From Sphingobacteriales bacterium (GTDB lineage Bacteria; Bacteroidota; Bacteroidia; Chitinophagales; JADIYW01): a stretch of 57,225 nt of DNA. Below are positions 30,423-44,534 of the stretch, piece by piece. Location: NCBI GenBank assembly GCA_043757615.1, contig JAYVPA010000138.1, positions 1-57,225 on the forward strand, in the 5' to 3' direction. Within the stretch, counting starts at the first letter, position 1; each line of letters begins with the position of its first letter. A program made the translations under genes and the position numbers. The notes under the pieces were generated by a model. The model was given only the letters and a program-made list of their open reading frames with translations, was not told the DNA's origin and searched no databases.

Positions 30423-32651
30423 ATGGGAAAAATCCTTTTAAATCCGGCTGATTGCTGCCGTCGAATTATGTACATAAAAAATTTAAAGATGCTCAATTCT
30501 TTTATTTTGACGTTGTTTTTAAGCGCAACATCTTTTATTTCTTTTGCTCAAAACGTCGAAAAAACTGCTGCATCTGCAGTTAAGCCTTTAGAAATCTATT
30601 CAAGAGTACAAGTTGCTGCAAACGATTTACAGCGTGCAAAAATGTATGAAGCTATCGGATTTGACCATTTGCTGATTCAGCCTGATGGTTCTTTTATCGG
30701 TGAATTTTCACAAAGCGAAATCAGCAAGATGACCGAACTGGGTGCAAAAGTGAAAGTTTTAATCCCCGATGTAGTAAAAGATTTTATAACAAAGAATAAT
30801 AAAAAGAGGATTTCAAATATCAACTCAGACCTTACCTTGCCTAACGGATTTACATATGGCAGCATGGGAGGTTATCTTACATTTGATGAAGTGGTTGCAA
30901 AGCTGGATCAACTTAGAACCATGTATCCTAATCTTATTACAATAAAACAATCCATCGGAAAAAGTACGGAGAACCGTGATTTATGGGTGGTTAAGATTTC
31001 TGACAATCCGGATATTGATGAAAATGAACCAAAGGTGTTTTTTAATGCACTTACACACGCGAGAGAGCCGGCAGGTATGATGCAAATGATTTATTATATG
31101 TGTTATATCCTTCAGAATTATAATGCAGACCCTGAAATAAAACATTTAATAGATAATCGTGAATTATACTTCGAGCCGGTGGTTAATCCGGATGGATATG
31201 AATATAACCGTTCGTTAAATGCAAGCGGCGGTGGTATGTGGCGAAAGAACCGATATAAAGTAACAAATACCACCACTACTGTGAGTAATTGCAAAACGGT
31301 TATTACAGGTACGTTATGTGATACGACATGGAAAACAACCACACCATATACAACCAGTAATTGTCGAAATATTACCACAACAAAATGTGATACTTCCTGG
31401 AATAAATCACACACTACTTATACACTTAAAAATTGCAGAAGCACTACAGTTAAAGTCTGTGATACAACATGGGGAGCTTCTGTAAACACTTATACAACCA
31501 GTAATTGCCGTAATACAACCAAGACTACCTGTGATACTACACGCACTTCCAGCTCTACTGTTTATGGCGTAGACTTAAACAGAAATTACGGATATAAATG
31601 GGGATTTGATAATACAGGAAGCAGTGCTACAAATACGTCCGATACTTACAGAGGTCCGTATGCTTTTTCTGAACCAGAACTAATTGCCGTAAGGGATTTT
31701 AGTATTTTAAAACAATTTAAAGAAGTTTCCAATCAACACACTCCAGGGAATGATCTTACCTATCCTTTTAGCTATAATAATTCAGTTGTAAATCCTGAAC
31801 AGGCATTTTATAATCTCAAGAATAGTTTAGCAACAGAAGATAACCACTTTACCATCGGTCATATGCTGCAGACTCAAGGTTATTTAGCGAATGGTGAAGC
31901 AAGCGACTGGCAATTTGGTGACCAGATTACAAAACCAAAAGCTTATTCCTGGACTCCGGAATTAGGAACCACTTTCTGGCCAACACAAGCCGAAATTGAA
32001 CCGTTGTGCTTAACAAACATTCGAATGAATGATAATATTGCCTGGATGGCTGCTGAATATTTCAGATACTCTGCAAATGCGGGTTTAAATACAACTTCTG
32101 CAACTTTCACTGTACCTGTAACAATTATTAATTACGGTGATAACAGTGGCTCAGTAGAAACTATTAAATTTATACCTTTATCTGTATCAACAAGTACATC
32201 AACCGGAAATGATTCGATATCATTAAATGGTATAACTCCGGGTATGACCACTACCAAAAATCTTACATTAAGTCTTTCAGGCTATAGTGGAACAGGAACC
32301 ATAAGTGGCGTACTGCGAATTTCATACTCCGACGGGTACACACAAGATAAACCATTTAGTTTTACGTACGCACTTCCACTCGGATTGAGAAAGCAAGCAA
32401 CAACAACTGACGCAAAAAAAGTGAATGATATCTATTCTTTATATCCGAATCCGACAGGCAGTTTATTTCATATAAATTCAACAAATAATGAAGTACCTGT
32501 TTCTGTTTCCGTTTATGATATGAATGGAAGTATTATGAAAACAATACAGAACACCAACGACGTTGACTTATCCGGTCTGGCTAACGGTATCTATACAATC
32601 AGAATAGAAACAACAAGTGGGATTATTGACAAAAAAATTACCAAGCAATAA
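30423..32651 (+). CDS. M14 family zinc carboxypeptidase with internal Cys-rich repeat insertion and T9SS C-terminal sorting domain
   Basis: HAREP (HxxE zinc site), WRKNR, GVDLNRNY, and the C-terminal YPNPTGSLFHINS...GIYTIRIET. The more likely start is 30468 or 30489 (MLNSFILTLFLSATSFISFAQN signal peptide). Confidence 0.85.
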   Translation: MGKILLNPADCCRRIMYIKNLKMLNSFILTLFLSATSFISFAQNVEKTAASAVKPLEIYSRVQVAANDLQRAKMYEAIGFDHLLIQPDGSFIGEFSQSEISKMTELGAKVKVLIPDVVKDFITKNNKKRISNINSDLTLPNGFTYGSMGGYLTFDEVVAKLDQLRTMYPNLITIKQSIGKSTENRDLWVVKISDNPDIDENEPKVFFNALTHAREPAGMMQMIYYMCYILQNYNADPEIKHLIDNRELYFEPVVNPDGYEYNRSLNASGGGMWRKNRYKVTNTTTTVSNCKTVITGTLCDTTWKTTTPYTTSNCRNITTTKCDTSWNKSHTTYTLKNCRSTTVKVCDTTWGASVNTYTTSNCRNTTKTTCDTTRTSSSTVYGVDLNRNYGYKWGFDNTGSSATNTSDTYRGPYAFSEPELIAVRDFSILKQFKEVSNQHTPGNDLTYPFSYNNSVVNPEQAFYNLKNSLATEDNHFTIGHMLQTQGYLANGEASDWQFGDQITKPKAYSWTPELGTTFWPTQAEIEPLCLTNIRMNDNIAWMAAEYFRYSANAGLNTTSATFTVPVTIINYGDNSGSVETIKFIPLSVSTSTSTGNDSISLNGITPGMTTTKNLTLSLSGYSGTGTISGVLRISYSDGYTQDKPFSFTYALPLGLRKQATTTDAKKVNDIYSLYPNPTGSLFHINSTNNEVPVSVSVYDMNGSIMKTIQNTNDVDLSGLANGIYTIRIETTSGIIDKKITKQ

Positions 32652-32709: not shown

Positions 32710-32733
32710 AGTTTTTGATAATGAGATTTAAGA

Positions 32734-32763
32734 ATATTACTTCTCAGGTCACATTTGAGGGAA
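32734..32763. repeat. att-like direct repeat C (degenerate copy of the lysS 3' end), distal island boundary
   Basis: atattacttctcaggtcAcatttgAggGaa matches 43002-43031 at 27 of 30 positions. On the minus strand it reads FFPQM then TGA, so the coding potential is decayed. Confidence 0.75.
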
Positions 32764-32765
32764 AA

Positions 32766-32841
32766 AGAAAAGATGAGTGATAATTGGAATTGCCAATGTA
32801 AACATCGCGAGTAAAAAACAGTGAAAAACAAAATTTATCTT
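32766..32841 (-). pseudogene. fragment copy of the first 24 codons of the batA-like gene (start codon mutated ATG to ATA)
   Basis: 69 of 76 nt identical to 23343-23418 by my manual alignment. Minus-strand reading is INFVFHCFLLAMFTLAIPIITHLFFFPQM*, against MNFVFPWFLLALFTLAIPIIIHLFYF in the intact gene. Confidence 0.8.
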
Positions 32842-32912
32842 GTCTTGTGTTTAAAGATAGGAAATAGTGATTAGATATGAGTTAACAGTTAACAGTTTTT
32901 TTAGGAATTCGA

Positions 32913-33221
32913 TTAATATAAACTCGAAGCTAAGACAATTTGATGCACATAAAGATACTTGCTGTCTGTTTTAAAAATGATAATCCAATTATCAATTGCT
33001 ATACAACTGAAATCATTTGCGGCATAAACCTTATGCCGACATAATGCATATTTAATGGGTTGTGTGTATTTTTTGATTTTCTTTAGAAATCTATCTTTCC
33101 ATCTTTGTCCTGAACCTTTCGTATTGGTTTGTTCAACAAAGAGAGCAACATTTGTAAGTGATTTTTTAGCTAAAGCACTATATTTTACTTGCAAATGATT
33201 TCTTCTTTTGAATTTTTGCAA
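32913..33221 (-). CDS. putative ParE/RelE-family type II toxin
   Basis: ~95-102 aa and overlaps the upstream small ORF. KYSALAKKSLTNVALFVEQ resembles the ParE/RelE N-terminal helix pattern, and WIIIFKTDSKYLYVHQIV resembles the C-terminal beta strands. Assigned by pattern only. Confidence 0.4.
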   Translation of the reverse strand: MQKFKRRNHLQVKYSALAKKSLTNVALFVEQTNTKGSGQRWKDRFLKKIKKYTQPIKYALCRHKVYAANDFSCIAIDNWIIIFKTDSKYLYVHQIVLASSLY

Positions 33222-33396
33222 TTTCTTTATCTATTGATTCTTTCACTTCTTCTTCTGTAAAAAACTCATCATTCTCATGTTCTTTGATAAGTAAAGAAAT
33301 TTCTTCATCAGTAAATTTTCTACCAATGCCGAAAGCCAAATCATGTGCAGTAAGTTTACGAATAGACTCTTTAGTGGATGTTTTAGAAATTGTCAT
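33178..33396 (-). CDS. putative antitoxin (small acidic protein upstream of the toxin-like ORF)
   Basis: 72 aa, charged. Overlaps the downstream toxin-like ORF, which is classic type II TA gene organisation. Confidence 0.35.
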   Translation of the reverse strand: MTISKTSTKESIRKLTAHDLAFGIGRKFTDEEISLLIKEHENDEFFTEEEVKESIDKEIAKIQKKKSFASKI

Positions 33397-33630
33397 AAAT
33401 AAATTTAAGAAGAAAAAGTTAGAATTGCAATGGGGATTTTGTCTGAACCACAGATTATACTGATTTAAGGATAGTTATGATTTTTATTTACTCACTAAAC
33501 ATTTTAGATTTACTGTACAAATCGTCAATATCTAATTTGTCAGTCATTTTTATAAATAATTTCTGCTTTTTATGTTTGAAGTAATTTTAAACAAAAACAA
33601 ATAAATTTCTTGTTTCTTCACTAAATTTAT

Positions 33631-34020
33631 CTATATCAGTAACATATTTAATTCGTGTAGAAAACTGTATATACTTTTTTTATTTAAATCAGGATTTAAG
33701 TAACACCATAAAAGAACTTCTTCATTTTCTATATTATAATGATGAGCGTTGTATTTATTTCGCATATTTATTATTTTATTATGCAAACCACTCATGATAT
33801 TTTTAACATTTTTATTCTCTTCAGAAAATATCGGATTATTATTCAAGAAAGTCAAAATCTGTATCCATTCAATTTTTGTTCCATCACGAGAAGCAAAACA
33901 TTTTCCGTACGTTATTATTGCTGTTATTAATAATTTGTGTTTTAATTTTTTTGATAATTTTTCATCTTTAATTGAACTTAACTTCTGAATATCTTCTATG
34001 CATTCTATACATATATCCAA
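33631..34020 (-). CDS. hypothetical protein, possibly the 3' part of a frameshifted gene
   Basis: The frame is open upstream to 34119 without an ATG (the track start is TTG). A separate short ORF (MDDLGETRYDNELGNILL*) starts at 34163 in another frame and ends at 34107, so one indel in 34110-34119 would fuse them. Confidence 0.35.
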   Translation of the reverse strand: MDICIECIEDIQKLSSIKDEKLSKKLKHKLLITAIITYGKCFASRDGTKIEWIQILTFLNNNPIFSEENKNVKNIMSGLHNKIINMRNKYNAHHYNIENEEVLLWCYLNPDLNKKSIYSFLHELNMLLI

Positions 34021-34182
34021 ATCTTTACAAAGTAAATTATATGCTTTGTATTGTTTTGAAAATTTAGAATTAATTATGACATAATTACATGGCTTGCCAT
34101 CAATTCTTACAACAGGATATTACCAAGTTCGTTGTCATATCTTGTTTCTCCTAAATCATCCATAATAGAAATTGTTTATTTC

Positions 34183-34208
34183 TACTTCTCAGGTCGCATT
34201 TGCGGAAA
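34183..34208. repeat. att-like direct repeat B (copy of the lysS 3' end), left boundary of the integrase-bearing island
   Basis: tacttctcaggtcGcatttgcggaaa matches 43006-43031 at 25 of 26 positions. The minus strand still reads FFPQMRPEK*, with synonymous CGA for AGA and TAG for TAA. Confidence 0.8.
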
Positions 34209-34316
34209 AAAGACCAGTCATTAAGGTAAGAGATTTATTTATAATAGGTTATGAGGATTTTCATTTTTCGAGTTACAAATAAGTAACAAGTTGGTGGAAG
34301 TAATAAGATGTAAAAT

Positions 34317-34739
34317 CTAAGTATATTCAATTTCAAATTTTCCATTAGATGTATCTAAAAATAATTCTGATGTAACATCAATATTTGACCATCTAATAAT
34401 AAATTGACTAGTTGAAAAATATTTATTTAATAAATCTTCGACGTGCAATCTTGCCTCGTTGGTATTATCTATATCAACATCACTTTCTCCAGTTAGGATA
34501 GCTCCTCCACAGGCATAAACTTTAACTAAGTCTTTATTATATCTCTTTAATGAATTAATAATAAACTCCTCCATATCATTGCTATGATTAGGACTTGGTT
34601 GATGTATCATTGAACCTGCCTTTTGAATAGGGTCATAAATACCAACTGCTATACATGGTCCCATACCATTTGAGCAAATTATTTCAGGTGATTTTGCATA
34701 TCCTACTTCAAACATATTAATCTGTATACCATATGTCAT
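34317..34739 (-). CDS. CheD-like cysteine deamidase-fold protein (outside any chemotaxis context)
   Basis: INMFEVGYAKSPEIICSNGMGPCIAVGIYDPIQKAGSMIHQPSP aligns with CheD of T. maritima (IGIGEYAVMKNPGVIVTLGLGSCVAVCMRDPVAKVGAMAHVMLP) and of B. subtilis. The catalytic Cys and His are present, and Thr is replaced by Ser at position -6. The later GGA motif (VYACGGAIL vs KIAGGASMF) is conserved. 140 aa, similar to CheD. Confidence 0.65.
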   Translation of the reverse strand: MTYGIQINMFEVGYAKSPEIICSNGMGPCIAVGIYDPIQKAGSMIHQPSPNHSNDMEEFIINSLKRYNKDLVKVYACGGAILTGESDVDIDNTNEARLHVEDLLNKYFSTSQFIIRWSNIDVTSELFLDTSNGKFEIEYT

Positions 34740-34759
34740 TTTAATAAATATTCATTAAG

Positions 34760-37700
34760 TTAAAAAATAATATTTACAGCTACTGCGCCTTTAAAATTGA
34801 AACCAATATTAAAATTAACGCGTTGATTATATTTAAATTTTGCCCAATCAATATCAGGATTATCTGATTTACTAAAAAAGAGTCTGTCACCTGTTTTATC
34901 TCGTTTTATAAATCCAAAAGAGGATTCAATTTTGGTTATTACACCACTAAATAATTTTTCTCTATTATTTTCTTTTAGAATTAACCTAACCTGACTTCTG
35001 TTTTTAAATTTCACGGTTGACAAGAATTCAAATACATCATTGTATTCTGCTAATTCATCTAAAATATAGCAACACCTACCATACAAGAATTGTTCTTCAT
35101 GGTTATTATCATTCTTAGTAAATGATTTCCTTAAGTAGTGTTTTATATCTATGTAATCAGGATTGGCTTCTCTCATCAAGAATGTGGAATATAGATAATT
35201 TAAATCTTTCGAATTTGGATTTTCTTCTAAACATTTCCTAAGTACTTCTTTGGCTTTGTCTTTTGCATTATTCTTATTATAGAATTTACACAACCGTATT
35301 GCAATATAAACACTATTAGGATTTGCAGTAAAAGCATTTTCAAGTATTTTTAATGCTCTAGGATGTTCACTTATTATTGTATTAAATTCTGCTTCTGTAT
35401 CAGCAATGTAACTTTCCAAAGGAAAATCTCGTTTTGCATTCTTTAAATTCTTTTCAAAATCTTTAATTTTACTTTCTATACTTTCTTGTAACGCGTCTTT
35501 ATTAACTGCATTTTTTATATCTAATACTAAAGCTTTTAGCAGAGTATGATAAGGATATGCACTCTTATTCTTAGCTGAATTTAGTTTGCCACAAATTTCT
35601 TTTATTGTATCAAGATATTTTTTCTGTTTAACTGTATTATCTGTCGTTTCAAACTTTCTTAAATAAAACTCAGCCCTAGAGTGTAAAATATTTGGATTCT
35701 TTTCATCTAATTCTTGAGCCTCTTCTAATAGCTCATTTGCTCTGGTTAAATCTCCATCATGAGAATTCATTTCAAAAATTGCTTCTTGCAAGAATAAATT
35801 AGAATCATTTTTCAAATCCTCTCGAATATTTCTGTATATCAATCTAACATATTTAGGATTGCTGAAAATTGCTTTTAGATTTTTTGCTTTAATCATTGCT
35901 ATATATGCAATCCTGTCACTTTCATAGTCAATATCTAAATTATTGAGTATTCTAATCATTTTATCATATCTATCTTCATCATTTCTTAAGACTTCCTCGA
36001 ATAATATTTCAGCAATATGTTGATGTCTAGTTTCTAATGCATAATCATTTATCGAATACTTCCAATTATAGAATACAATATTCTCTAATGGTTTAAATAA
36101 ATGCTCTTTGAAGTAACTAAATCCAATATTATGAACTCTAGATATTAAGCCTACTCTTGTATAGACACCCAATCTGTGTAGTATAGCAATTGTTAAGTAT
36201 AATTGTTTTGCATCATCATTAGAAATTGATTGATATTCTTTGCTTACGATTTCAGCAAATGGTCTTCCTTGTGTAGCTTCATGTAAAGCAACCAATAATT
36301 GTCTTCCTGCTCTTTCTGATAATTCCTTAATCCTTTCTTCTTTGGATTTACTTGTTAAATAACCAAGAGAATTATTTTTTTCTAATAAATCTAATAGTTC
36401 AATAATTTCTTTATCATTTAGATATTTTAGTTCGTATTCTACAGTTACATACTCCTCTAATGATTTACATTCTGTATTCCAAGTGCTATATCTTTCTGCA
36501 CAAATAATAGTTAGTAATATTTTGTCTTTTTTTGCTTTATCTATTATTTCCTCTATATCATTTACGTGTTCAGAAGGATTGTCTATAAATAAATATATTC
36601 TATCTTTTAGATAGTAATATAATTCGTTAATTGGCTCATATCTTAATTTTACATCATCATTTAAAAACAAGCAAATCTTATCAAAATCAACAGCCGCATC
36701 CCAAGCCAATCTTTTTAATAGAACAGATTTTCCTGATCCAGCCTGTCCTTTAATTAAATAAAAATCATTTGGACTAATTCTGTTTAACTCTTCATCAAGA
36801 AATATCTCTAGTAATAAGTTGTCCTTTATATACCTATTGCAATCCATATTTTTAATTATTGGATCCCAATTATTAAAATAACCCTTATAGAAATTCTTAG
36901 GGTCTGTATCTTTTGATTTAAGATTTGAATAAACATACTCAATATCTAATTCTAAGAAACTTTTTAGACTCTCGCTAATATTAATGTCTTGACGTTGAAC
37001 CTTAAATTTATTAATTATCGGATGAGAAACAGGACTAAGGATTGTAGCCAATTTTCTGTCCGCAATAGAAATTTGACTATTGAGAGTATTAAGAAATTGT
37101 TCAAATGACATCTTTAAAGATGATATTTTTTTGCTTTCCCACAGTTTTGCTTCTTCGTCTTTAATGTATGGTCCAATGAGATATGACCTTGGTACATTTT
37201 CATGAGAAGAGAAGGTTTGTTTAATGATAGTTCTTATATCTACGTCATCAAAACTAAATCCAACAAAGAGAAAAGGATTTTCATACTTGTAATCTTTAAG
37301 CTTATCAAATAACCTATCTCTATTTGTTTTATGGTCTATATATTGTTCTGGAGATAATATCAATGGAATTTCAACATTCTGTGCTTCTGATATACAACCA
37401 TGTAATTTTATGTAAAATAAATCGTTATTGGATTTTATTTGGTCATTTACCTTTTGACCATTCTTAATAAAGGGAACTATATTTTGAATTCTTTCTTTAT
37501 TAGTATCATAAGCCCTTTCAATAGTTAAGTCATAGTTTACAGTAAATATAGCCCTCCATCTGAAATTTGGTATTAACTTATGAAATTCTGTTGGGTTAAA
37601 GCCACTAAATATTTCATAGATATATTTTTGAACATCTAGTAAATCTGATTCACTAGTACATAGTTCTGCTACATGCTGTAAAGAAGCATTTTTAAAATCA

Positions 37701-37858
37701 TCTGATAAATATTTTTCTACTAATAAATCTCTTAAATCATTTCCAAGCGGTATTTTTTTACCATTCATATTAGTTGCCCCAAACGATGCACCTGCACCTA
37801 AAAATAAAACAACATTTCCTGTTTTTATTTGCTCTAAAAGATGCTTAGGTATTTCCAT
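34760..37858 (-). CDS. SIR2-like (SIR2_2 type) / P-loop STAND NTPase / TPR-like repeats / C-terminal cold-shock-like domain protein; candidate anti-phage sensor-effector
   Basis: SIR2_2 pattern: GNVVLFLGAGASFGA, FTVNYDLTIERAY, IKLHGCI, FLFVGFSFDD. Walker A is IKGQAGSGKSVLL and Walker B-like is IYLFIDNPSE. TPR-like helices include NPNILHSRAEFY, NPNSVYIAIRLCKFY and NPNSKDLNYLYSTFLM. The C-terminus FSGVITKIESSFGFIKRDKTGDRLFFSKSD...QRVNFNIGFNFKGAVAVNI follows the CspA pattern. I prefer the start MEIPKHLLEQ at 37858; the track ORF extends to 37963. Confidence 0.75.
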   Translation of the reverse strand: MEIPKHLLEQIKTGNVVLFLGAGASFGATNMNGKKIPLGNDLRDLLVEKYLSDDFKNASLQHVAELCTSESDLLDVQKYIYEIFSGFNPTEFHKLIPNFRWRAIFTVNYDLTIERAYDTNKERIQNIVPFIKNGQKVNDQIKSNNDLFYIKLHGCISEAQNVEIPLILSPEQYIDHKTNRDRLFDKLKDYKYENPFLFVGFSFDDVDIRTIIKQTFSSHENVPRSYLIGPYIKDEEAKLWESKKISSLKMSFEQFLNTLNSQISIADRKLATILSPVSHPIINKFKVQRQDINISESLKSFLELDIEYVYSNLKSKDTDPKNFYKGYFNNWDPIIKNMDCNRYIKDNLLLEIFLDEELNRISPNDFYLIKGQAGSGKSVLLKRLAWDAAVDFDKICLFLNDDVKLRYEPINELYYYLKDRIYLFIDNPSEHVNDIEEIIDKAKKDKILLTIICAERYSTWNTECKSLEEYVTVEYELKYLNDKEIIELLDLLEKNNSLGYLTSKSKEERIKELSERAGRQLLVALHEATQGRPFAEIVSKEYQSISNDDAKQLYLTIAILHRLGVYTRVGLISRVHNIGFSYFKEHLFKPLENIVFYNWKYSINDYALETRHQHIAEILFEEVLRNDEDRYDKMIRILNNLDIDYESDRIAYIAMIKAKNLKAIFSNPKYVRLIYRNIREDLKNDSNLFLQEAIFEMNSHDGDLTRANELLEEAQELDEKNPNILHSRAEFYLRKFETTDNTVKQKKYLDTIKEICGKLNSAKNKSAYPYHTLLKALVLDIKNAVNKDALQESIESKIKDFEKNLKNAKRDFPLESYIADTEAEFNTIISEHPRALKILENAFTANPNSVYIAIRLCKFYNKNNAKDKAKEVLRKCLEENPNSKDLNYLYSTFLMREANPDYIDIKHYLRKSFTKNDNNHEEQFLYGRCCYILDELAEYNDVFEFLSTVKFKNRSQVRLILKENNREKLFSGVITKIESSFGFIKRDKTGDRLFFSKSDNPDIDWAKFKYNQRVNFNIGFNFKGAVAVNIIF

Positions 37859-38262
37859 ATATAATTTGATTAATGCTAATATAGTGAAAATAATATATTT
37901 TAATAGGTAAGCCTTTATATATGCAGGAATTTTTCTAGCAGTCATAACCGCCATTAGTAGCATCGAAAAAAGCCTGGAGAAATAAAAATTAAGGGATAAA
38001 ATTATATTAGAATCTACTTATTAATTTTAAGTAAAAATTTGTGTAAATCCACAAAGCATGGATTTAACTATATGTCGGTGATAGCTCGTGCAAAACAATT
38101 TATTTTAATTATAAAAGCTATAATGCATATAAATAGATAGGAACCCAAATAACATATAATTAGATAATAAAAATGGAATCTTATCTGTATAATAATTACC
38201 TCTGATTATCAGATAGTTTATTGTATATATTCGACAATAAAATTCATCTGTTATAATATTTA

Positions 38263-39111
38263 TTAAGGTTCTGTTACAATAGCTTCATCATTTGCAGACT
38301 CTATATCGTAATATAAATAAAGGCTATTTTCTCTATACATTTTATATCTTGCCTGTTTGAAACGGAATGATTTTAATATTGCCGACATTTTGGTTTGTAC
38401 TTCGCTTATAACTTCTCTATCATAAAATGATTCACCTGTAAAACTAATTACAGTATTTTTGTTTCCTGACAACCCAATAGAAGTACCAATCGTAGAAAAT
38501 TCGTTTGCTGCAATTATTGCATAATTTCGTCTCATTTTAGGAAATTCGTTTCTTTGTAGTATTTGTGCTCGTTTTTTTAATTCTATTGATTTTGACCTTA
38601 TTGATGGATTCGCACTTTGCATGCCAGCATCAATTATTTTACCCCAACCATAAAATATTCCTAGTTCCAATATTAAATTATCAACAGAACCACTAAAGGC
38701 ACTACGATTAAAAGGCTTTTTAAATGATTCTAATTCCATGTTCAATCGTGCTTCATCTACTTCCATTCCGTCAACCGTTATTTCACTATTAACTTTGTAG
38801 TCACTAACTGTATCAGAATAGATTATTGAATTGGTATTACTACTCGTTAAACTAATATTAGTATTAGTATTATCATTAGGATTTGATTTTATAATTAACC
38901 AAAATATGTAGACGAATAATAATACAAAAGCGACTGCTAAAATATTACCACCTTTGCCGAGTGTAATTTCCTTTTTAATAAAATGTTTATTCTTGATAGC
39001 ACCACCGCAGTTACTGCAAGAAACATATTCATTATGGATATAGTTCTCTGTTACTTCGAATTGTTCCTTGCATTTGGAACATCTTACGTTTTTTACTTTT
39101 CTTTTTTCCAT
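38263..39111 (-). CDS. zinc-ribbon / single-TM membrane protein with uncharacterised C-terminal domain
   Basis: N-terminal CSKC...CSNC four-Cys ribbon, a TM helix ILAVAFVLLFVYIFWLII, and a ~200-aa C-terminal region with no family I recognise. Confidence 0.55.
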   Translation of the reverse strand: MEKRKVKNVRCSKCKEQFEVTENYIHNEYVSCSNCGGAIKNKHFIKKEITLGKGGNILAVAFVLLFVYIFWLIIKSNPNDNTNTNISLTSSNTNSIIYSDTVSDYKVNSEITVDGMEVDEARLNMELESFKKPFNRSAFSGSVDNLILELGIFYGWGKIIDAGMQSANPSIRSKSIELKKRAQILQRNEFPKMRRNYAIIAANEFSTIGTSIGLSGNKNTVISFTGESFYDREVISEVQTKMSAILKSFRFKQARYKMYRENSLYLYYDIESANDEAIVTEP

Positions 39112-39232
39112 AATTTATCTTATTAGTTATATCTAAATATAATCAAAAACACATTACCCTATATGTGGGGTGGTATAAAATTGAAAAAATGTTTGCCTTT
39201 ATAATGTGGAAGCCGCTGATAAAAAGTTTTTA

Positions 39233-39445
39233 ATGTTGTTTGGTGCTCATTTAAGAAAAATCCGGGAATCAAAATCTATTTCTCAGGATAACTTATCCTA
39301 TGCATGTGACATTGCCAAAAATCAAGTAGGACTAATTGAACGAGGGGAAATAAATACTTCTATTGATACTGTCCGCAAACTGGCAGAAGCACTAAATATT
39401 CCAATAGAAGCACTATTTAAATTTGAATACAAGAAATCTAAGTAG
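39233..39445 (+). CDS. XRE-family helix-turn-helix transcriptional regulator
   Basis: LRKIRESKSISQDNLSYACDIAKNQVGLIERGEINTSIDTVRKLAEALNI is a canonical HTH_3/XRE pattern. The track start at 39206 is GTG; the ATG at 39233 is more likely. Divergent from the zinc-ribbon gene. Confidence 0.8.
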   Translation: MLFGAHLRKIRESKSISQDNLSYACDIAKNQVGLIERGEINTSIDTVRKLAEALNIPIEALFKFEYKKSK

Positions 39446-39537
39446 TTTCTAGTATACTTTCTTTTAAATAATATAAATACTCTTATTGCATATACATTAG
39501 TTTACTAGCAACATAATAAATACCTAAATTAAGAGAA

Positions 39538-40476
39538 TTATCTGTAAATATTCTTTAATAAATTAACAGCAGTATCGACGTTATAAAATATATTTTCATC
39601 ATCGAACTGCTTATTTGAACTTCTTAGTTCTCTAACATTTGTTCTTAAATTACTTCTTGTGTTCATTTTGTACATACCTTTGTTAAAATTATCTTGTATA
39701 TGTTCTTCAATAAATAATTCTTCTGAACAATTACTTACTGCATAATGTGCTAGTGCGTACATTAATGTTGTTTTATTCTTAAAAGGTAAAAGTTTTTTTG
39801 TGTATATTTTTTCGATATTAAAATAAATAATAAAAAGCTTGTTAATGTAAAAATTGTAGGTATTTGTTTTAAGCAAATCTTTTAAAATTAGTTTTTCACC
39901 ATTCAAATTTTTTATCCGTTGCATTAATCTATTCTCAATCCTTAAAACCCTTTTCATTTTAAAAAAATCTGGAATAGAAATTTTTTTATTTTTCAATTCA
40001 GCTATCTTATCATACAATATAATTTCATTTGTTGTTGATGTAAAATATATTGATGGCGTTTTTGTAGCATACAAAATTTTATCATGGTTGCGATACTTTT
40101 TACACCTTAGTATGTATTTCAGTAAATCTTCACTTACAATTATATTCATTGCTATATCTAAGCGTGTTACAAATGCTTTAGAAAAATCTACTCCAAAATT
40201 CTTAGATAATTTCTTGACTAGAAACTTAAAATCATTTAAGGATGGGCAAGCTAAATTGTTACCTAGTAATAACTTTGTAAAACTTCCCTCAAATAAGATA
40301 GTGAAGGGCATTTGTAGTTTATTAGGATTATTTATTATTCGAAATTCAGCTCCATTAAACAGAAACAGAAACACCTCATTTCCGTTCTTTGAGGTATATC
40401 TCTTCCCCAACTGTACTTTTTCACTTACATCTGGAAATTTATTTAACTGTAGTAAAAGTCTTATTGTATCTATCAT
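39538..40476 (-). CDS. putative replication initiation protein (phage/plasmid gene II/X, Phage_CRI-like)
   Basis: The N-terminus MIDTIRLLL, VTRLDIAMNI and VLRIENRL resemble my memory of Phage_CRI-type Rep proteins. Position in the mobility module supports this. Weak, pattern only. Confidence 0.35.
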   Translation of the reverse strand: MIDTIRLLLQLNKFPDVSEKVQLGKRYTSKNGNEVFLFLFNGAEFRIINNPNKLQMPFTILFEGSFTKLLLGNNLACPSLNDFKFLVKKLSKNFGVDFSKAFVTRLDIAMNIIVSEDLLKYILRCKKYRNHDKILYATKTPSIYFTSTTNEIILYDKIAELKNKKISIPDFFKMKRVLRIENRLMQRIKNLNGEKLILKDLLKTNTYNFYINKLFIIYFNIEKIYTKKLLPFKNKTTLMYALAHYAVSNCSEELFIEEHIQDNFNKGMYKMNTRSNLRTNVRELRSSNKQFDDENIFYNVDTAVNLLKNIYR

Positions 40477-40509
40477 TGTTCATTATTAGCGTGAATAATT
40501 GCAGTATTA

Positions 40510-40956
40510 TTATAAGATAGATGACTTAATCATTTTTTTATTTTTTCTTATTTCTGAAAAAATAAAATTAAACTGTTTGAAAAAAACTGTTTGAAAAATT
40601 AATTGATAATAATTTTTCAAATCTTTAAAAACAAAGATTTCAAAAAACAATTTATTTTTATCAGTTTTTATTATTAATAAATCATCCATACCTATTACAT
40701 AACCATACGCAAAATTAAATGCTCCGGGACATTCTTTCAAGAAAAAGATATTTGCTTTTATTTTTTTTGCAATAGTTAGTTTATAACAATTCATTCTAAA
40801 GCTATAGTTCTTATTTAGACGTTTACTCCGCTTGACAGAAAAATCAATCCATTTCAATTTTACATTTTTTGAAGCAACTATCTTATAAAAATCCTTTGTA
40901 ATTCTTTTGAATAAATAATAATCTGATATTGGGTTACTAATTAATCTATTATTCAT
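40510..40956 (-). CDS. hypothetical protein (island)
   Basis: 148-aa ORF whose start abuts the stop of the upstream HTH gene (40958), suggesting an operon. No recognisable motif. Confidence 0.45.
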   Translation of the reverse strand: MNNRLISNPISDYYLFKRITKDFYKIVASKNVKLKWIDFSVKRSKRLNKNYSFRMNCYKLTIAKKIKANIFFLKECPGAFNFAYGYVIGMDDLLIIKTDKNKLFFEIFVFKDLKNYYQLIFQTVFFKQFNFIFSEIRKNKKMIKSSIL

Positions 40957-40957
40957 T

Positions 40958-41239
40958 TTACTTCTTTTTATTGATTGTTATTGAATTAGCTAATTCCTCC
41001 ACGGTTTTTATCTTTTTTGCGAATGCGTATTTCCTTAGGTCTTTCTTTTTGAAATACATTTGTTTGCCATTGGGTTTGTAGTGAGCAATTTCTCCTCTAC
41101 TAGTTAGCTTGTGGAGGGTACTAATAGAAATACTCAAGAACTTCGCTGCATCTTCTGTGCAAACGGGTTCTTCTGTGTAAGCTCTAAGTCGTCTGTTTAT
41201 TCGCTTGAGGATTACGTCTAATTGATGAATTTTATTCAT
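40958..41239 (-). CDS. excisionase-type (MerR-like, HTH_17) DNA-binding protein
   Basis: AAKFLSISISTLHKLTSRGEIAHYKPNGKQMYFKKKDLRKYAF is the typical excisionase-family HTH pattern. 93 aa, near the integrase. Confidence 0.7.
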   Translation of the reverse strand: MNKIHQLDVILKRINRRLRAYTEEPVCTEDAAKFLSISISTLHKLTSRGEIAHYKPNGKQMYFKKKDLRKYAFAKKIKTVEELANSITINKKK

Positions 41240-41325
41240 TCTTATACAATTGTTGGTGTACCATATAATACTCCAAACTTGAAAGAAAAAACAGGAATTT
41301 TATAAAAAGTTTAGGTAATAGGATT

Positions 41326-41802
41326 TTACATCAGAAAAGGGTAATGTCTTTTGATGTTTTCAAGATGTACTTGAAATGCTTCTGAGGTATCAAAATCTTC
41401 TCTCTGCTCTTTTGTTGTCAAATTGAACATTTTCCATATGTTATATATTGTAGATGGCGGGATAAATATATTCTTCTTTTCTAAGAGTCTACTTAACTCA
41501 TTCTTATTTAATTCATACTTTTCTGCTGATAATTTTAAAACCAATTTTAACTTAGCAAAATCTGTTCTTTGGGTTAATTTGTATTTATTTCTTAATCTTT
41601 CTTTAATACCGTTTTTGCCTTCTTCTTTATATATTTTTTGATAACTATAATAAGTAGTTCTTGAAAGCCTTAAAGATGTTATGTTCTTTTTTAGATACCA
41701 TTTATATATTTTATATTCCGTCCTGATGCATTCAATTAATTCAACTTGACTTATAAACTTAGTCTTAGGGCTTACTACAACTGGAAATCCTTTATTACTC
41801 AT
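41326..41802 (-). CDS. hypothetical HTH-like protein adjacent to the integrase
   Basis: 158 aa and basic. LSRTTYYSYQKIYKEEGKNG resembles transposase/terminase-type HTH. Ends 4 nt before the integrase gene region. Confidence 0.4.
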   Translation of the reverse strand: MSNKGFPVVVSPKTKFISQVELIECIRTEYKIYKWYLKKNITSLRLSRTTYYSYQKIYKEEGKNGIKERLRNKYKLTQRTDFAKLKLVLKLSAEKYELNKNELSRLLEKKNIFIPPSTIYNIWKMFNLTTKEQREDFDTSEAFQVHLENIKRHYPFLM

Positions 41803-41805
41803 AAT

Positions 41806-42864
41806 CTAAAATATACTTGGAATTTTATTTACTGCATCTGTTTTAGTTTTGTCTATAATCTTAGTATAAACCTGAGTACTTTTTATGTCTTTATGTCCTA
41901 ATAATTTTTGTACTGTAAATATATCTACTCCATTATTTAATAATTGTGTAGCTGCAGTATGTCGTGAACTATGAAAAGATAATTGTTTTGTGATACCAGC
42001 TTTCTTTAGCAACTCTTTTGCACATCTATTCACACTTGAATGGTCTTTTGGCAAATCAAATACATAATCATCGTTTTCTTTTCTGTCACCAATAAGTTTT
42101 ACTGCACTTTCACTTAATTCAAAATAGTTAAATGCAGATGTTTTAATCTGTTTTTTCTTAACTCTGCAACCGTTTTCACTTACTTCAATATTACTCCATT
42201 TAAGGCTCATAATATCTGAAACTCGCAGACCGGTATAACATGCAAATAAAAATGCTCTCTTAACTTCATTATTATAAAACTGAGTATTAAATACTTTCTT
42301 CATTTCTTCAATTGTAAGAAAATTCTTTTCTGTTTCTGATTTTTGTGGGGTGTCTATTTTTCTTGTCGGATTTGATGGGATAACATCATCTTTTACTGCT
42401 TGATTTAAAACCGCATTAATTTTCTGATAATACGTTCTGATTGAATTAGGTGACAATCCTTCATCTTTCAAAAAAGAAAAAAAACTCTCAAACCATTTCT
42501 TATCCATGTTCTTAAACTTTATTCTCCTATTAGTAAAATTATTAAGATGTGATAGGACACTATTCCAGCTCTCTTGTGTTTTAGTATTTTTTTTCTTCAT
42601 TTCATATTTGAAATATTCTAAAAAGTCCAAGTCGTTGTCTGATTTCTTTTTAATTCCATAATCCTCATTGATTAACTCTAATTCTCTCGTAGCTACAATA
42701 CGGTTTAATGCTTCTTTTATGAGTCTTCTTTCTTTAGATGTATTAGATTCCTTTATAGTTAATCCTTTTATGGTTTCTGTCCACCTATCATCGCCCATAT
42801 AGATATCCATGTAGAATGAGGTATCTCCATTTTTTAAATTCCTTTCTCTTAATTTAATTGCCAT
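41806..42864 (-). CDS. tyrosine-type site-specific recombinase/integrase (Bacteroidota phage-integrase family)
   Basis: TGLRVSDIMSLKWSNI (box I Arg) and HSSRHTAATQLLNNGVDIFTVQKLLGHKDIKSTQVYTKI (HxxR...H...Y). N-terminal SAM-like domain. 140 nt from the lysS stop. Confidence 0.9.
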   Translation of the reverse strand: MAIKLRERNLKNGDTSFYMDIYMGDDRWTETIKGLTIKESNTSKERRLIKEALNRIVATRELELINEDYGIKKKSDNDLDFLEYFKYEMKKKNTKTQESWNSVLSHLNNFTNRRIKFKNMDKKWFESFFSFLKDEGLSPNSIRTYYQKINAVLNQAVKDDVIPSNPTRKIDTPQKSETEKNFLTIEEMKKVFNTQFYNNEVKRAFLFACYTGLRVSDIMSLKWSNIEVSENGCRVKKKQIKTSAFNYFELSESAVKLIGDRKENDDYVFDLPKDHSSVNRCAKELLKKAGITKQLSFHSSRHTAATQLLNNGVDIFTVQKLLGHKDIKSTQVYTKIIDKTKTDAVNKIPSIF

Positions 42865-43001
42865 ATCTGTCGCATTTACTTATAACAAAAATAACAAATA
42901 AGTAACAAAATCACTCAGAAATAACAAAAAATATCAAGGTATGGTTATTCAGAATAATCATAACTAATTGATAATTAACTAATTTAACTGTCTATTGTTG
43001 G

Positions 43002-43031
43002 ATATTACTTCTCAGGTCTCATTTGCGGAAA
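43002..43031. repeat. att-like direct repeat A (functional 3' end of lysS), right island boundary
   Basis: atattacttctcaggtctcatttgcggaaa. The minus strand encodes ...FFPQMRPEK*. It is repeated at 34183-34208 and 32734-32763. Confidence 0.8.
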
Positions 43032-44534
43032 GAATAAAACTTCCTGTATAGACGACTGATTGCTGAATAACATCGCGAGTCTGTCGATGCCGAAACCAAT
43101 GCCTGAGGTTGGCGGCATGCCATATTCCAAGGCACGCAGGAAATCCTGGTCTATAAACATCGCTTCATCGTCACCGCGCTCCTGAAGTTTTAACTGGTCT
43201 TCAAAGCGTTCACGCTGGTCAATCGGATCATTTAATTCCGTATACGCATTCGCAATTTCCTTTCCATTTATCATCAGCTCAAAACGCTCTACCAAACCTT
43301 CTGTCGTGCGATGTTTTTTTGTCAGGGGCGACATTTCCACCGGATAATCAATAATGAACGTCGGCTGGATATAATTATGTTCGCAGCGTGCACCAAAGAT
43401 TTCATCTATCAGTTTTCCTTTGCCCATGGAACTATCTGTTTCAATATGCAATTGTTTACAGACATCACGCAGTGCAGCTTCATCCATTGCAGAAACATCA
43501 AAACCTGTATACGTTTTTATTGCTTCATAAATGGAAATACGTTTGTACGGCGCTTTAAAGTTTATCATGTTCTCGCCCACTTCCACCGCAGTTGTTCCAT
43601 TTGTATCTACACACGCTTTTTCCAGCAATTGCTCTGTGGTTTCCATCATCCAGAAATAATCTTTATACGCCACATAAAATTCCAGTACGGTAAACTCAGG
43701 ATTATGCGTTTTATCCATTCCTTCATTTCTAAAATTTCTTGAAAACTCATACACCCAGTCAAAACCTCCAACTATCAATCTCTTCAGATATAATTCATTC
43801 GCGACACGCAGATACAAAGGAATATCCAGCGCATTATGATGCGTCATAAATGGTTTTGCAGCCGCGCCGCCGGGAATGCTTTGCAGCACAGGTGTGTCCA
43901 CTTCTAACGCACCTTTATCATTTAAAAATTCACGGATGGAATTCATCATTTTGGTGCGTTTAACAAATGTTTCGCGCACTTTTGAATTCACCACTAAATC
44001 TACATAACGCTGACGGTAACGCAATTCCGGATCAGAAAAAGCATCAAATACATTTCCTTCATCATCTGTTTTTACAACAGGCAATGGACGCAGTGATTTT
44101 GCCAGCAAGGTAAATTCTGTTGCATGAATAGTTATCTCGCCCATCTTTGTAATAAAAGCATATCCTTTTATCCCAATGAAATCACCAAGGTCTAATAATT
44201 TGGAGAAAAGTACATCGTACAAAGATTTATCTTCTGTCGGACAAATATCATCGCGGCGAACATAAATTTGTATACGGCCCGCACTGTCCTGGATTTCCGC
44301 AAACGTTGCTTTTCCTGCAGGGCGTGCAGCCATCAATCTGCCGGCAACACAGACTTCCTGGTAATTCAAACGGTTCTTCGCACCATCTTCCAAAACCTCT
44401 TCCTTGTAATTTTCTTTTATCTCTTTAGAAGTCACACTTACAGGATATAAAGGCGCAGGATATGGATCTACACCTAATGCTTTTATTTTTTCCAGTTTCT
44501 CACGACGTACTTGTTCTTGCTCAGAAAGTTGCAT
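43005..44534 (-). CDS. lysS: lysine--tRNA ligase (class II)
   Basis: 509 aa. RNFRNEGMDKTHNPEFTVLEFY (motif 2) and GIGFGIDRLAML (motif 3), with an OB-fold N-terminus. Confidence 0.95.
   Translation of the reverse strand: MQLSEQEQVRREKLEKIKALGVDPYPAPLYPVSVTSKEIKENYKEEVLEDGAKNRLNYQEVCVAGRLMAARPAGKATFAEIQDSAGRIQIYVRRDDICPTEDKSLYDVLFSKLLDLGDFIGIKGYAFITKMGEITIHATEFTLLAKSLRPLPVVKTDDEGNVFDAFSDPELRYRQRYVDLVVNSKVRETFVKRTKMMNSIREFLNDKGALEVDTPVLQSIPGGAAAKPFMTHHNALDIPLYLRVANELYLKRLIVGGFDWVYEFSRNFRNEGMDKTHNPEFTVLEFYVAYKDYFWMMETTEQLLEKACVDTNGTTAVEVGENMINFKAPYKRISIYEAIKTYTGFDVSAMDEAALRDVCKQLHIETDSSMGKGKLIDEIFGARCEHNYIQPTFIIDYPVEMSPLTKKHRTTEGLVERFELMINGKEIANAYTELNDPIDQRERFEDQLKLQERGDDEAMFIDQDFLRALEYGMPPTSGIGFGIDRLAMLFSNQSSIQEVLFFPQMRPEK

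What the first reader, a model, noticed from the sequence alone, without database searches (positions are those of the whole stretch)
34317..34739. CheD-fold cysteine deamidase outside any chemotaxis context
Seen in sequence: the GMGPCIAVGIYDPIQKAGSMIHQPSP block matches the CheD signature G-L-G-S-C-V-x-V-x-x-x-D-x(3)-K-x-G-x-M-x-H-x-x-L-P. The catalytic Cys and His are in register, and Ser replaces Thr six residues before the Cys. The later GGA motif and the C-terminal beta-rich region also align. Established knowledge: CheD deamidates Gln residues of chemoreceptors, and its fold is shared with the CNF1-type deamidase toxins. No che, mcp or flagellar genes occur in this window. The gene instead lies inside a mobile island, translationally close to a STAND NTPase. 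A deamidase that irreversibly edits Gln/Asn on a target protein would be a plausible but unreported immune effector or regulator.
Basis: partly seen in the sequence, partly recalled or inferred. Interest (0 to 1): 0.78.

Follow-up and report, generated by a model that had tools for sequence, protein, structure and literature searches.

The report
Orphan CheD-like deamidase on mobile element
A small gene next to a bacterial immune sensor really does encode a relative of the chemotaxis enzyme CheD, but it belongs to an unnamed family of stand-alone enzymes scattered through defence and mobile regions, and its pairing with this sensor is not conserved.

Summary
Window 34317..34739 (minus strand) encodes a 140-aa protein that is a divergent CheD homologue: profile-profile probability 99.1% over the full length, and T. 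maritima CheD is the top structural match (TM 0.76, model pLDDT 97). Its Ser23/Cys29/His46 triad has the CheD/NTAN1 spacing. It fails the curated CheD models. It belongs to an unannotated family of at least 167 clusters; in 124 aligned representatives Cys is kept in 122 and His in 123. No che, MCP or flagellar genes were found in the window or in the 13 other family contexts, where neighbours that matched no Pfam model could not be classified.

The gene is the last gene of an 8.8-kb integrase/Rep element inserted at the 3' end of lysS. It lies 20 nt behind an Avs5-like SIR2-STAND-TPR-CSD gene. That pairing is not conserved:
- None of the 13 other family contexts has a STAND gene.
- None of 3 STAND-homologue contexts has a CheD-like gene.

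Relatives do recur just behind other large defence genes (type III Res, fused methylase-specificity genes). Others sit among TIR, HEPN, Schlafen and toxin-antitoxin genes, and some sit alone among housekeeping genes. The most likely reading is an autonomous protein Gln/Asn deamidase with a role in genetic conflict. The substrate is unknown.

The parts
34317..34739 (-). CheD-like Cys-His-Ser amidohydrolase gene (140 aa). Catalytic codons: Ser23 34671-34673, Cys29 34653-34655, His46 34602-34604.
   Evidence: ORF. CheD homology. AF2 model pLDDT 97.4 with 2f9z_C as top Foldseek match. Conservation of the triad.
34740..34759 (-). 20-nt AT-rich spacer between the STAND stop codon and the CheD-like ATG. 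No terminator-like site, so co-transcription is likely (inferred).
   Evidence: Sequence. No terminator-like sites in 33400-38400.
34760..37963 (-). Avs5-like SIR2-STAND gene: SIR2_2 (aa 138-281), nSTAND_NTPase5 (aa 357-502), TPR, C-terminal cold-shock domain. The true start is probably Met36 (37858).
   Evidence: Pfam hits at 3.7e-24 and 1.2e-23. PADLOC ThsA-type SIR2 hit. EfAvs5 9jap_A E 5.8e-10. Homologues of ~1035 aa cover 96-97% of the ORF.
34171..34211 (.). Middle copy of the att-like repeat (core 34183-34211), 106 nt beyond the CheD-like stop codon. It marks the distal end of the 8.8-kb element.
   Evidence: the repeat finder family D1; alignment A5.
42994..43034 (.). att-like repeat copy overlapping the 3' end of lysS. 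It marks the integrase-proximal end of the element.
   Evidence: lysS identified by PDB phmmer, E 5e-145.
32726..32766 (.). Third, more degenerate att-like copy. It bounds a 1.4-kb integrase-less segment (32767-34182) holding three small ORFs.
   Evidence: ORFs. The 129-aa ORF hits phrog_8440.
41806..42864 (-). Tyrosine integrase of the element.
   Evidence: Pfam Phage_integrase 1.5e-31 and Phage_int_SAM_5 6e-22.
39538..40476 (-). Replication initiator-like protein (Phage_CRI / G2P N-terminal domain) of the element.
   Evidence: Pfam PF05144, 8.6e-10.
39206..39445 (+). Cro/CI-type HTH regulator of the element.
   Evidence: Pfam HTH_3, 9.7e-11.
38263..39111 (-). 282-aa protein of unknown role with an N-terminal zinc ribbon, upstream of the STAND gene. 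A hydrophobic stretch follows the zinc ribbon (read from the sequence).
   Evidence: Only weak zinc-ribbon hits. Sequence.

Best explanation
The gene encodes a compact, probably cytoplasmic (inferred from the sequence) cysteine amidohydrolase. It is a genuine but divergent homologue of the chemoreceptor deamidase CheD. It belongs to an unannotated family of ~140-170-aa proteins that has left chemotaxis.

Shown:
- It has the CheD fold.
- It has a Ser/Thr-Cys-His triad that is almost invariant across the family.
- It has no che or MCP neighbours.
- It is the terminal cargo gene of an 8.8-kb integrase/Rep element inserted at the 3' end of lysS, 20 nt behind an Avs5-like SIR2-STAND gene.

Inferred:
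- Cys29, activated by His46 and oriented by Ser23, attacks a side-chain amide. This converts a specific Gln or Asn of a protein substrate to Glu or Asp (+0.98 Da, irreversible), as CheD, CNF1, BLF1 and NTAN1 do.
- Its neighbours differ from locus to locus (SIR2-STAND here, type III Res, methylase-specificity fusions, or no partner). It therefore most likely works autonomously rather than as a dedicated STAND subunit. Here it probably rides on the STAND transcript.
- Its recurrent placement in defence or mobile regions suggests a role in phage-host or mobile-element conflict, for example inactivating an invader protein. The substrate is unknown.
For: Homology and fold.

Catalytic residues under selection: Cys 122/124, His 123/124, Ser/Thr 115/124, Gly78 124/124, Arg97 111/124. 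Triad spacing is identical to CheD and NTAN1.

Distinct family: 167 clusters at 50% identity with E<=1e-3. None of 124 members matches Pfam CheD.

Autonomy: no conserved neighbour in an all-vs-all BLAST of 13 contexts, apart from the L009/L010 methylases. No STAND gene in any other context. No CheD-like ORF beside three STAND homologues.

Conflict association:
- L005: directly after type III Mod-Res, near DUF6791-ThiF and HTH-M78.
- L009 and L010: directly after N6_Mtase+Methylase_S fusions. L010 is followed by a HEPN RiboL-PSP gene; L009 lies by dNK and DCD-like genes.
- L021: with Resolvase, TIR, DUF4268 and HicB.
- L001: beside Schlafen AlbA_2. L012: beside PDDEXK_4.
- L017: with Polbeta nucleotidyltransferase and Y1 transposase.
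- L003: near SocA_Panacea.

Mobile-element location.
Against: - No biochemical or genetic data exist; the activity and substrate class are inferred from homology alone.
- The defence association rests on about 9 of 14 contexts with no statistical background. Three contexts (L004, L011/L013, L022/L023) show only housekeeping neighbours.
- No PADLOC or PHROG family matches the protein.
- The same superfamily contains non-protein amidases and nucleoside enzymes (YfiH/PgeF, YlmD), which also appear among the fold matches.
- A constitutively expressed 140-aa enzyme with no sensor domain gives no obvious route to infection-specific action.
- In this locus the 20-nt spacing to the STAND gene is compatible with real functional coupling.
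Confidence: 0.5

Rival explanations
1. Dedicated partner of the SIR2-STAND. The deamidase matures, regulates or resets the STAND sensor by Gln-to-Glu editing, as CheD does for chemoreceptors, or it serves as a second effector released on STAND activation.
For: Same strand, 20-nt gap, no terminator-like site between the genes. The identical pair recurs in three metagenomic contigs. CheD's known role is maturation of a signalling receptor (established knowledge; PMC7022378).
Against: The three metagenomic copies are 100% identical in the deamidase and have the same downstream genes, so they are the same element and not independent evidence. None of the 13 other family contexts has a STAND gene. 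None of 3 STAND-homologue contexts has a CheD-like ORF. The closest relatives with usable contigs (45-51% identity) sit by a Schlafen gene or among housekeeping genes. EfAvs5 protected cells when expressed on its own (PMC11897194).
Confidence: 0.12
2. Element-encoded counter-defence or host-manipulation factor. The integrative element carries the deamidase to inactivate a host or competitor protein, for example a defence component or an anti-restriction target, for the element's own benefit rather than for host immunity.
For: It is the terminal cargo gene of a self-contained integrase/Rep element. Some relatives carry ankyrin repeats or long N-terminal extensions that match no Pfam model, as secreted deamidase effectors often do. 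Known CNF1-fold deamidases are offensive toxins (established knowledge).
Against: No family member was found in IMG/VR viral contigs by two probes of limited sensitivity, or in plasmid and phage collections. Three relatives are embedded in restriction-modification operons rather than in invading elements. No secretion signal is evident in the 140-aa protein (sequence).
Confidence: 0.15
3. Small-molecule or peptide amidase rather than a protein deamidase. It might act on a nicotinamide- or NAD-derived amide released by the SIR2 domain, on a muropeptide precursor (as YfiH/PgeF does), or on an N-terminal Asn (as NTAN1 does).
For: Fold matches include NTAN1, YfiH/PgeF and the inosine-binding YlmD. 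The neighbour is a predicted NADase whose product is nicotinamide (mechanism from PMC11897194).
Against: CheD is by far the closest relative in sequence and structure (TM 0.76, against 0.57-0.60 for NTAN1 and about 0.5 for YfiH). The protein lacks NTAN1's C-terminal cap, which confers N-terminal specificity (PMC7022378). It is about half the length of YfiH. The SIR2 neighbour is not conserved.
Confidence: 0.1
4. Neutral hitch-hiker or housekeeping enzyme with no role in conflict. The defence-rich neighbourhoods then simply reflect insertion into variable genome regions.
For: Three contexts are purely housekeeping. There is no conserved partner and no hit in defence-system libraries.
Against: The distribution is patchy, mostly single-member clusters. 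The gene repeatedly sits within 20 nt of, or overlapping, large defence genes. Strong conservation of the catalytic triad argues for a selected enzymatic function.
Confidence: 0.13

Closest known systems
CheD, chemoreceptor glutamine deamidase (Pfam PF03975; T. maritima structure 2F9Z)
   Same: Homologous over the full length (hhalign 99.1%). Same alpha-beta-beta sandwich (TM 0.76). Same [ST]-x2-GLG-x-C ... H ... GG ... R motifs and the same -6/+17 triad spacing.
   Different: Fails every curated CheD model. GLGPC replaces GLGSC. It lacks the ~13-residue insert after the His, the AGGAxMF motif and the NYGRT motif. It has a family-specific W117 and an L-x-LDT-x-TG-x-F C-terminus. No che, MCP or CheC neighbours were found. 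The host appears to be a Bacteroidota bacterium carrying type IX secretion (T9SS) cargo proteins, a group that generally lacks flagellar chemotaxis (own knowledge).
NTAN1, eukaryotic N-terminal asparagine amidohydrolase (6A0E)
   Same: Same superfamily. Second-best structural match (E 1e-4). The third triad residue is Ser in both.
   Different: NTAN1 is ~310 aa, with a C-terminal region that caps the active site and gives N-terminal specificity (PMC7022378). That region is absent here (TM on target only 0.30).
CNF1 / CNFy / BLF1-type deamidase toxins
   Same: [quoted passage not shown] They irreversibly deamidate Gln in a target protein.
   Different: Only weak structural matches (E ~1e-2, TM 0.42-0.47). 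Those toxins are secreted multidomain proteins aimed at eukaryotic GTPases or eIF4A. This is a solitary 140-aa intracellular protein.
YfiH/PgeF and YlmD (DUF152) enzymes
   Same: Same superfamily fold (E 3e-4 to 5e-2).
   Different: About twice the size and zinc-binding (PMC7022378), acting on UDP-MurNAc-peptides or nucleosides. TM is only about 0.5.
Avs5 (AVAST type 5, SIR2-STAND) - for the upstream gene
   Same: N-terminal SIR2 plus a STAND NTPase. Sequence match to EfAvs5 9JAP, E 5.8e-10, over the NOD.
   Different: It has a longer TPR sensor plus a C-terminal cold-shock domain. No PADLOC Avs model matched. In the two Avs5 papers consulted, EfAvs5 was expressed on its own and PaAvs5 genes were cloned under their native promoters, with no companion gene described.

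Membership tests
CheD (chemoreceptor glutamine deamidase, PF03975 / NCBIfam equivalogs) | Scores above the curated family threshold | tested here: not met
   Pfam: no CheD hit at E<=1, and 0 of 124 family members hit at E<=0.01. NCBIfam best 27.9 bits against a cut-off of 240.
CheD (chemoreceptor glutamine deamidase, PF03975 / NCBIfam equivalogs) | CheD fold with a Thr/Ser-Cys-His triad in register | tested here: met
   Foldseek top hit 2f9z_C, TM 0.76. hhalign 99.1%. S23/C29/H46 spacing equals T21/C27/H44.
CheD (chemoreceptor glutamine deamidase, PF03975 / NCBIfam equivalogs) | Encoded with che/MCP genes (cheC, cheA, cheW, mcp) | tested here: not met
   No che, MCP or flagellar domain in the 35 window ORFs scanned, nor among the annotated neighbours in 13 other contexts. 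In contrast, a bona fide cheD in L028 lies next to cheA.
CheD (chemoreceptor glutamine deamidase, PF03975 / NCBIfam equivalogs) | Deamidates MCP Gln residues and binds CheC | not testable with these tools
   Needs biochemistry. The rest of the genome outside the window was not available.
CNF1/YfiH-like cysteine hydrolase superfamily | Alpha-beta-beta sandwich with a catalytic Cys and His | tested here: met
   Fold matches to CheD, NTAN1, YfiH, CNFy and CNF1. Cys 122/124 and His 123/124 in the family.
NTAN1-type N-terminal amidase | Appended C-terminal region covering the active site | tested here: not met
   140 aa against ~310 aa; TM normalised to NTAN1 is only 0.30. The feature is described in PMC7022378.
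   None of 13 other deamidase contexts has a STAND gene. None of 3 STAND-homologue contexts has a CheD-like ORF.
Toxin-antitoxin module | Conserved small adjacent partner gene | tested here: not met
   All-vs-all BLAST of neighbours finds no shared small partner.
Avs5 / SIR2-STAND (upstream gene) | N-terminal SIR2 effector fused to a STAND NTPase with a C-terminal sensor | tested here: met
   SIR2_2 3.7e-24, nSTAND_NTPase5 1.2e-23, TPR, CSD. EfAvs5 9jap_A E 5.8e-10.
Avs5 / SIR2-STAND (upstream gene) | Recognised by defence-system HMMs as Avs | tested here: not met
   PADLOC hits only the ThsA-type SIR2, mad8 and CSD models.

The most novel reading that the evidence does not exclude
The compact CheD-like family is a new class of single-gene conflict enzymes. 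Each is a free-standing protein deamidase that irreversibly edits a Gln or Asn on an invading phage protein, or on a phage anti-defence protein, and is recruited as an add-on behind restriction-modification and STAND immune genes. That would make protein deamidation a mechanism of prokaryotic antiviral immunity, which the paper searches run here did not find described.
Probability: 0.22. Interest if true: 0.78.

Novelty: new variant of a known kind. Interest (0 to 1): 0.45.

Why it matters
CheD-type enzymes are studied almost only as chemotaxis components. This analysis shows a sizeable, unannotated sister family with an intact catalytic triad. It occurs in bacteria and loci with no chemotaxis genes, often on mobile elements and inside defence operons.

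If these enzymes deamidate phage or immune proteins, they would add irreversible protein editing to the mechanisms of prokaryotic immunity. That would parallel the use of deamidation by bacterial toxins and by viruses against eukaryotic innate immunity. Even if they do not, the family deserves its own model so that it is not annotated as a chemotaxis protein, as one member already is in JGI.

The negative result also matters. The attractive STAND-deamidase pairing is a one-off juxtaposition on one element, not a conserved two-gene system.

Tried and rejected
- The word-index homology search with the single protein found only the protein itself. The exhaustive HMMER search was needed.
- Single-sequence AlphaFold gave a useless model (pLDDT 38). 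It was replaced by the alignment-based model.
With A3 it yielded only 1 genome locus and 6 metagenome loci.
- Plasmid tblastn gave no match.
- Phage tblastn gave one hit (MT835847.1). It turned out to be a bona fide cheD beside cheA on an 'UNVERIFIED' scaffold, probably bacterial, so it was discarded as evidence for phage carriage.
- Two IMG/VR probes (an A3 peptide pattern and a degenerate DNA pattern) gave only chance matches.
- Pfam scans of 10 longer family members found only ankyrin repeats in one. The N-terminal extensions match nothing.
- Literature searches for CheD-like, deamidase and anti-phage terms found no prior description of such a family in defence contexts. The 'deamidation' hits in a Druantia preprint were only mass-spectrometry search settings.
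- I tested whether the 129-aa ORF downstream of the gene resembles the HEPN gene that follows the L010 relative. BLASTP found no similarity, and an att repeat separates that ORF from the element, so it was rejected as a partner.
- The sigma-70 promoter scan was uninformative (37 sites against 38 expected).
Full report
**1. The observation**

Window 34317..34739 holds a 140-aa ORF on the minus strand. Every independent test confirms that the resemblance to CheD is real:
- phmmer against all PDB sequences returns a single hit, T. maritima CheD (2f9z_C), at E 6.5e-5 over residues 9-54.
- Eight NCBIfam CheD equivalog models hit the same N-terminal stretch, best E 2.6e-6.
- A profile of 124 relatives hits 2f9z_C at E 6.6e-9 over about 100 positions.
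- hhalign of that profile against an alignment of bona fide CheDs gives probability 99.1%, E 5.5e-19, with 136 aligned columns, essentially the whole protein.
- An AlphaFold2 model built on the family alignment is very confident (pLDDT 97.4, pTM 0.91). Its best PDB match is CheD (E 1.7e-10, TM 0.76/0.70).

Ser23, Cys29 and His46 have the same -6/+17 spacing as CheD Thr21/Cys27/His44 and NTAN1 Ser69/Cys75/His92 (PMC7022378).

**2. A separate family, not an ordinary CheD**

The protein reaches no curated CheD threshold. Pfam PF03975 gives no hit at E<=1. NCBIfam gives 27.9 bits against a cut-off of 240.

An exhaustive HMMER search of 1.84 billion cluster representatives found 167 relatives at E<=1e-3, and 51 at E<=1e-10, mostly 132-176 aa long. 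None of the 124 aligned members matches Pfam CheD at E<=0.01.

Conservation within the family:

| Residue | Count of 124 |
|---|---|
| Cys29 | 122 |
| His46 | 123 |
| Ser/Thr23 | 115 (68 Ser, 47 Thr) |
| Gly78 | 124 |
| Pro28 | 117 |
| Arg97 | 111 |
| Trp117 | 113 |

These are therefore active enzymes under purifying selection. One member (P0010) has lost both the Cys and the His.

Compared with CheD, the family:
- has GLGPC in place of GLGSC;
- lacks a ~13-residue insert after the His;
- lacks the AGGAxMF and NYGRT motifs;
- has its own W...EL-x-LDT-x-TG-x-F C-terminus.

**3. Local anatomy**

The gene lies in a low-GC stretch (0.26-0.28, against about 0.35 for the flanks).

A ~30-nt core, TACTTCTCAGGTCnCATTTGnGGnAAnAA, occurs three times: at 32738-32766, 34183-34211 and 43006-43034. 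The right-hand copy overlaps the 3' end of lysS (43005..44534; LysRS, E 5e-145).

The interval ~34212-43005 (8.8 kb) therefore looks like an integrative element. In order along the minus strand it carries:
1. a tyrosine integrase;
2. an HTH_32 protein;
3. a 148-aa ORF;
4. a Phage_CRI-type replication protein;
5. a divergent Cro/CI HTH regulator;
6. a 282-aa zinc-ribbon protein;
7. the SIR2-STAND gene;
8. the CheD-like gene, which is last.

The middle att copy sits 106 nt past the CheD-like stop codon. Beyond it lies a 1.4-kb integrase-less segment with three small ORFs, bounded by the third, more degenerate repeat. The 129-aa ORF after the CheD-like gene therefore belongs to a different, tandem remnant and is not a partner.

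The upstream protein has four domains: SIR2_2 (3.7e-24), nSTAND_NTPase5 (1.2e-23), TPR repeats and a C-terminal cold-shock domain. It matches ThsA-type SIR2 models in PADLOC. It also matches the cryo-EM structure of EfAvs5 (9JAP) at E 5.8e-10 over the NOD.

Its stop codon is 20 nt from the CheD-like ATG, and no terminator-like site intervenes. Co-transcription is likely but inferred.

None of the 35 window ORFs scanned has a che, MCP or flagellar domain. The flanking genes include type IX secretion (T9SS) cargo proteins (Por_Secre_tail), which points to a Bacteroidota host.

**4. Is the STAND pairing conserved? No**

From the deamidase side I recovered 13 further distinct contexts. The window's own pair does recur in three metagenomic contigs. 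Their deamidase sequence is identical and their flanks are the same, so they are the same element. None of the 13 other contexts contains a relative of the STAND protein (BLAST).

From the STAND side, the protein belongs to a large, length-uniform family: 791 hits at E<1e-10, about 1030-1040 aa, in Mucilaginibacter, Tenacibaculum, Chryseobacterium, Nonlabens, Nitrospirae and Deltaproteobacteria MAGs. Three independent homologue loci were checked:
- a 121-kb metagenome contig;
- Tenacibaculum maritimum;
- Mucilaginibacter.

In these the gene is followed by an IS element, by 1.7 kb with no called gene, or by a convergent gene. A six-frame hmmsearch with the family profile finds no CheD-like ORF in any of them.

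In the Avs5 papers consulted, EfAvs5 was expressed on its own and PaAvs5 genes were cloned under their native promoters, with no companion gene described.

**5. What the other contexts show**

| Locus | Context of the CheD-like gene |
|---|---|
| L005 (Cyclobacteriaceae MAG) | Overlaps the end of a type III restriction Res gene, after Mod; a DUF6791-ThiF gene and an HTH-M78 gene lie nearby |
| L009 | Follows, within a few nt, a fused N6-methylase/specificity gene homologous to that of L010; convergent dNK and dCTP-deaminase-like genes |
| L010 | Follows the homologous methylase/specificity gene; a HEPN RiboL-PSP gene starts at its stop codon |
| L021 | Resolvase, TIR, DUF4268 and HicB |
| L001 | Schlafen AlbA_2 |
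| L012 | PD-(D/E)XK nuclease |
| L017 | Polbeta nucleotidyltransferase and Y1 transposase |
| L003 | SocA_Panacea |
| L007 | HTH, sigma-70 region 2 and PUA-like metallophosphatase |
| L004, L011/L013, L022/L023 | Housekeeping neighbours only |

The L022/L023 protein belongs to the closest-relative cluster (P0002, ~50% identity).

No small neighbour is shared between loci, so this is not a toxin-antitoxin pair. The picture is a solitary enzyme gene that lands in variable regions and is repeatedly appended to the 3' end of large defence genes. I could not compute an enrichment statistic because the context look-ups were exhausted.

**6. Other hints on function**

- One family member is fused to C-terminal ankyrin repeats. 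Eight others have 70-260-aa N-terminal extensions with no Pfam match. This is reminiscent of secreted deamidase effectors.
- Giant viruses encode larger CheD-fold proteins (bioRxiv 10.1101/777854).
- About a fifth of the family carries an acidic C-terminal tail ending in an aromatic residue (...EEEDF...DDY), possibly a docking motif. The window protein lacks it.
- No family member turned up in plasmid, phage or IMG/VR collections with the probes available.

**7. Mechanism**

Shown: the fold, the triad, conservation of the triad, and the genomic setting.

Inferred from the CNF1/YfiH-like hydrolases (PMC7022378): the Cys29 thiolate, generated by His46 and oriented by Ser23, attacks a carboxamide. 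It releases ammonia through a thioester intermediate and converts Gln or Asn to Glu or Asp.

CheD, by a wide margin the nearest relative, acts on Gln side chains of folded proteins. The NTAN1 cap and the extra size of YfiH are both absent here. A protein side-chain amide is therefore the most likely substrate.

The variable or absent partners argue for autonomous action. The neighbourhoods argue, weakly, for a conflict role. Overall confidence in this composite is about 0.5:

| Component | Confidence |
|---|---|
| Enzyme class | ~0.85 |
| Autonomous action | ~0.7 |
| Conflict role | ~0.5 |

The rivals are a dedicated STAND partner (0.12), an element-encoded counter-defence factor (0.15), a small-molecule amidase (0.10) and a neutral hitch-hiker (0.13).

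**8. Comparison and novelty**

The protein works like CheD but is not a member of the curated CheD family. The sequence thresholds and the chemotaxis context were both tested and not met. [quoted passage not shown]

Literature searches found no description of CheD-like enzymes in defence islands or of deamidase-based anti-phage systems. I rate it a new variant of a known kind.

Interest is moderate (0.45). The family and its setting are new and testable. The feature that made the finding exciting, a STAND-linked deamidase, does not hold up as a conserved system, and no substrate can be named.

Noticed in passing
window 32738-32766, 34183-34211, 43006-43034: Three copies of a ~30-nt att-like core, with the right copy overlapping the 3' end of lysS. 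This implies two tandem insertions: an 8.8-kb integrase/Rep element and a 1.4-kb integrase-less remnant.
   Followed up: partly
window 33631-34020 (-): The 129-aa ORF in the remnant segment matches phrog_8440 (unknown function, E 1.3e-7). It contains RNKYNAH, an Rx5H motif like the HEPN RNase signature. BLASTP shows no similarity to the HEPN gene that follows the L010 relative.
   Followed up: partly
window 37858-37963 (-): The STAND ORF as listed (1067 aa) probably starts 35 codons too early. Homologues are about 1035 aa and cover 96-97% of it, which points to Met36 (MEIPKHLL...) as the start.
   Followed up: no
L010 1-3011: An apparent three-gene operon: fused N6-methylase/specificity gene, then the CheD-like gene, then a HEPN RiboL-PSP gene that starts at the CheD-like stop codon. 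It could be a restriction-modification-embedded module.
   Followed up: partly
L005 2997-10522 (Cyclobacteriaceae MAG JBIKRT010000006.1): Type III Mod-Res, then the CheD-like gene, then a 164-aa unknown, followed by a convergent DUF6791-ThiF (E1-like) gene and an HTH-M78 gene. This is a dense defence island.
   Followed up: partly
family members P0125, P0024, P0031, P0036, P0037, P0041, P0061, P0096, P0146: The CheD-like domain is fused to C-terminal ankyrin repeats in P0125, or to 70-260-aa N-terminal extensions with no Pfam match in the others. Several extensions share an ALKIERY-like motif. These may be secreted effectors.
   Followed up: partly
27 of 124 members of alignment A1 (e.g. P0005, P0008, P0013): Acidic C-terminal tails ending in an aromatic or hydrophobic residue (...EEEDF, ...EEDDF, ...DDY), reminiscent of the partner-docking tail of SSB (own knowledge). 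The window protein lacks such a tail.
   Followed up: no
P0010 (L007 8001-8474): This family member has Ser and Glu in place of the catalytic Cys and His, so it is probably a pseudoenzyme.
   Followed up: no
L028 (MT835847.1, 'UNVERIFIED Bacteriophage sp.' scaffold): It carries cheA (E 8e-110 to PDB CheA), then ORFs of 158 aa and 209 aa, then a bona fide cheD. This looks like a bacterial chemotaxis operon, so the scaffold is probably mis-assigned as phage.
   Followed up: partly
BFVD hits A0A7D3V927, A0A6N1NPS2, A0A5B8IFF4, A0A2P1EL59: Mimiviridae encode 250-300-aa CheD-fold proteins (Foldseek E 6e-8 to 1e-6). This is another non-chemotaxis use of the fold.
   Followed up: no
window 30423-32651 (+): An M14 carboxypeptidase with a T9SS sorting tail has a Thr/Cys-rich repeated insert (about four copies of ...SNCRN-T-T-CDT-W...) splitting the peptidase domain.
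   Followed up: no
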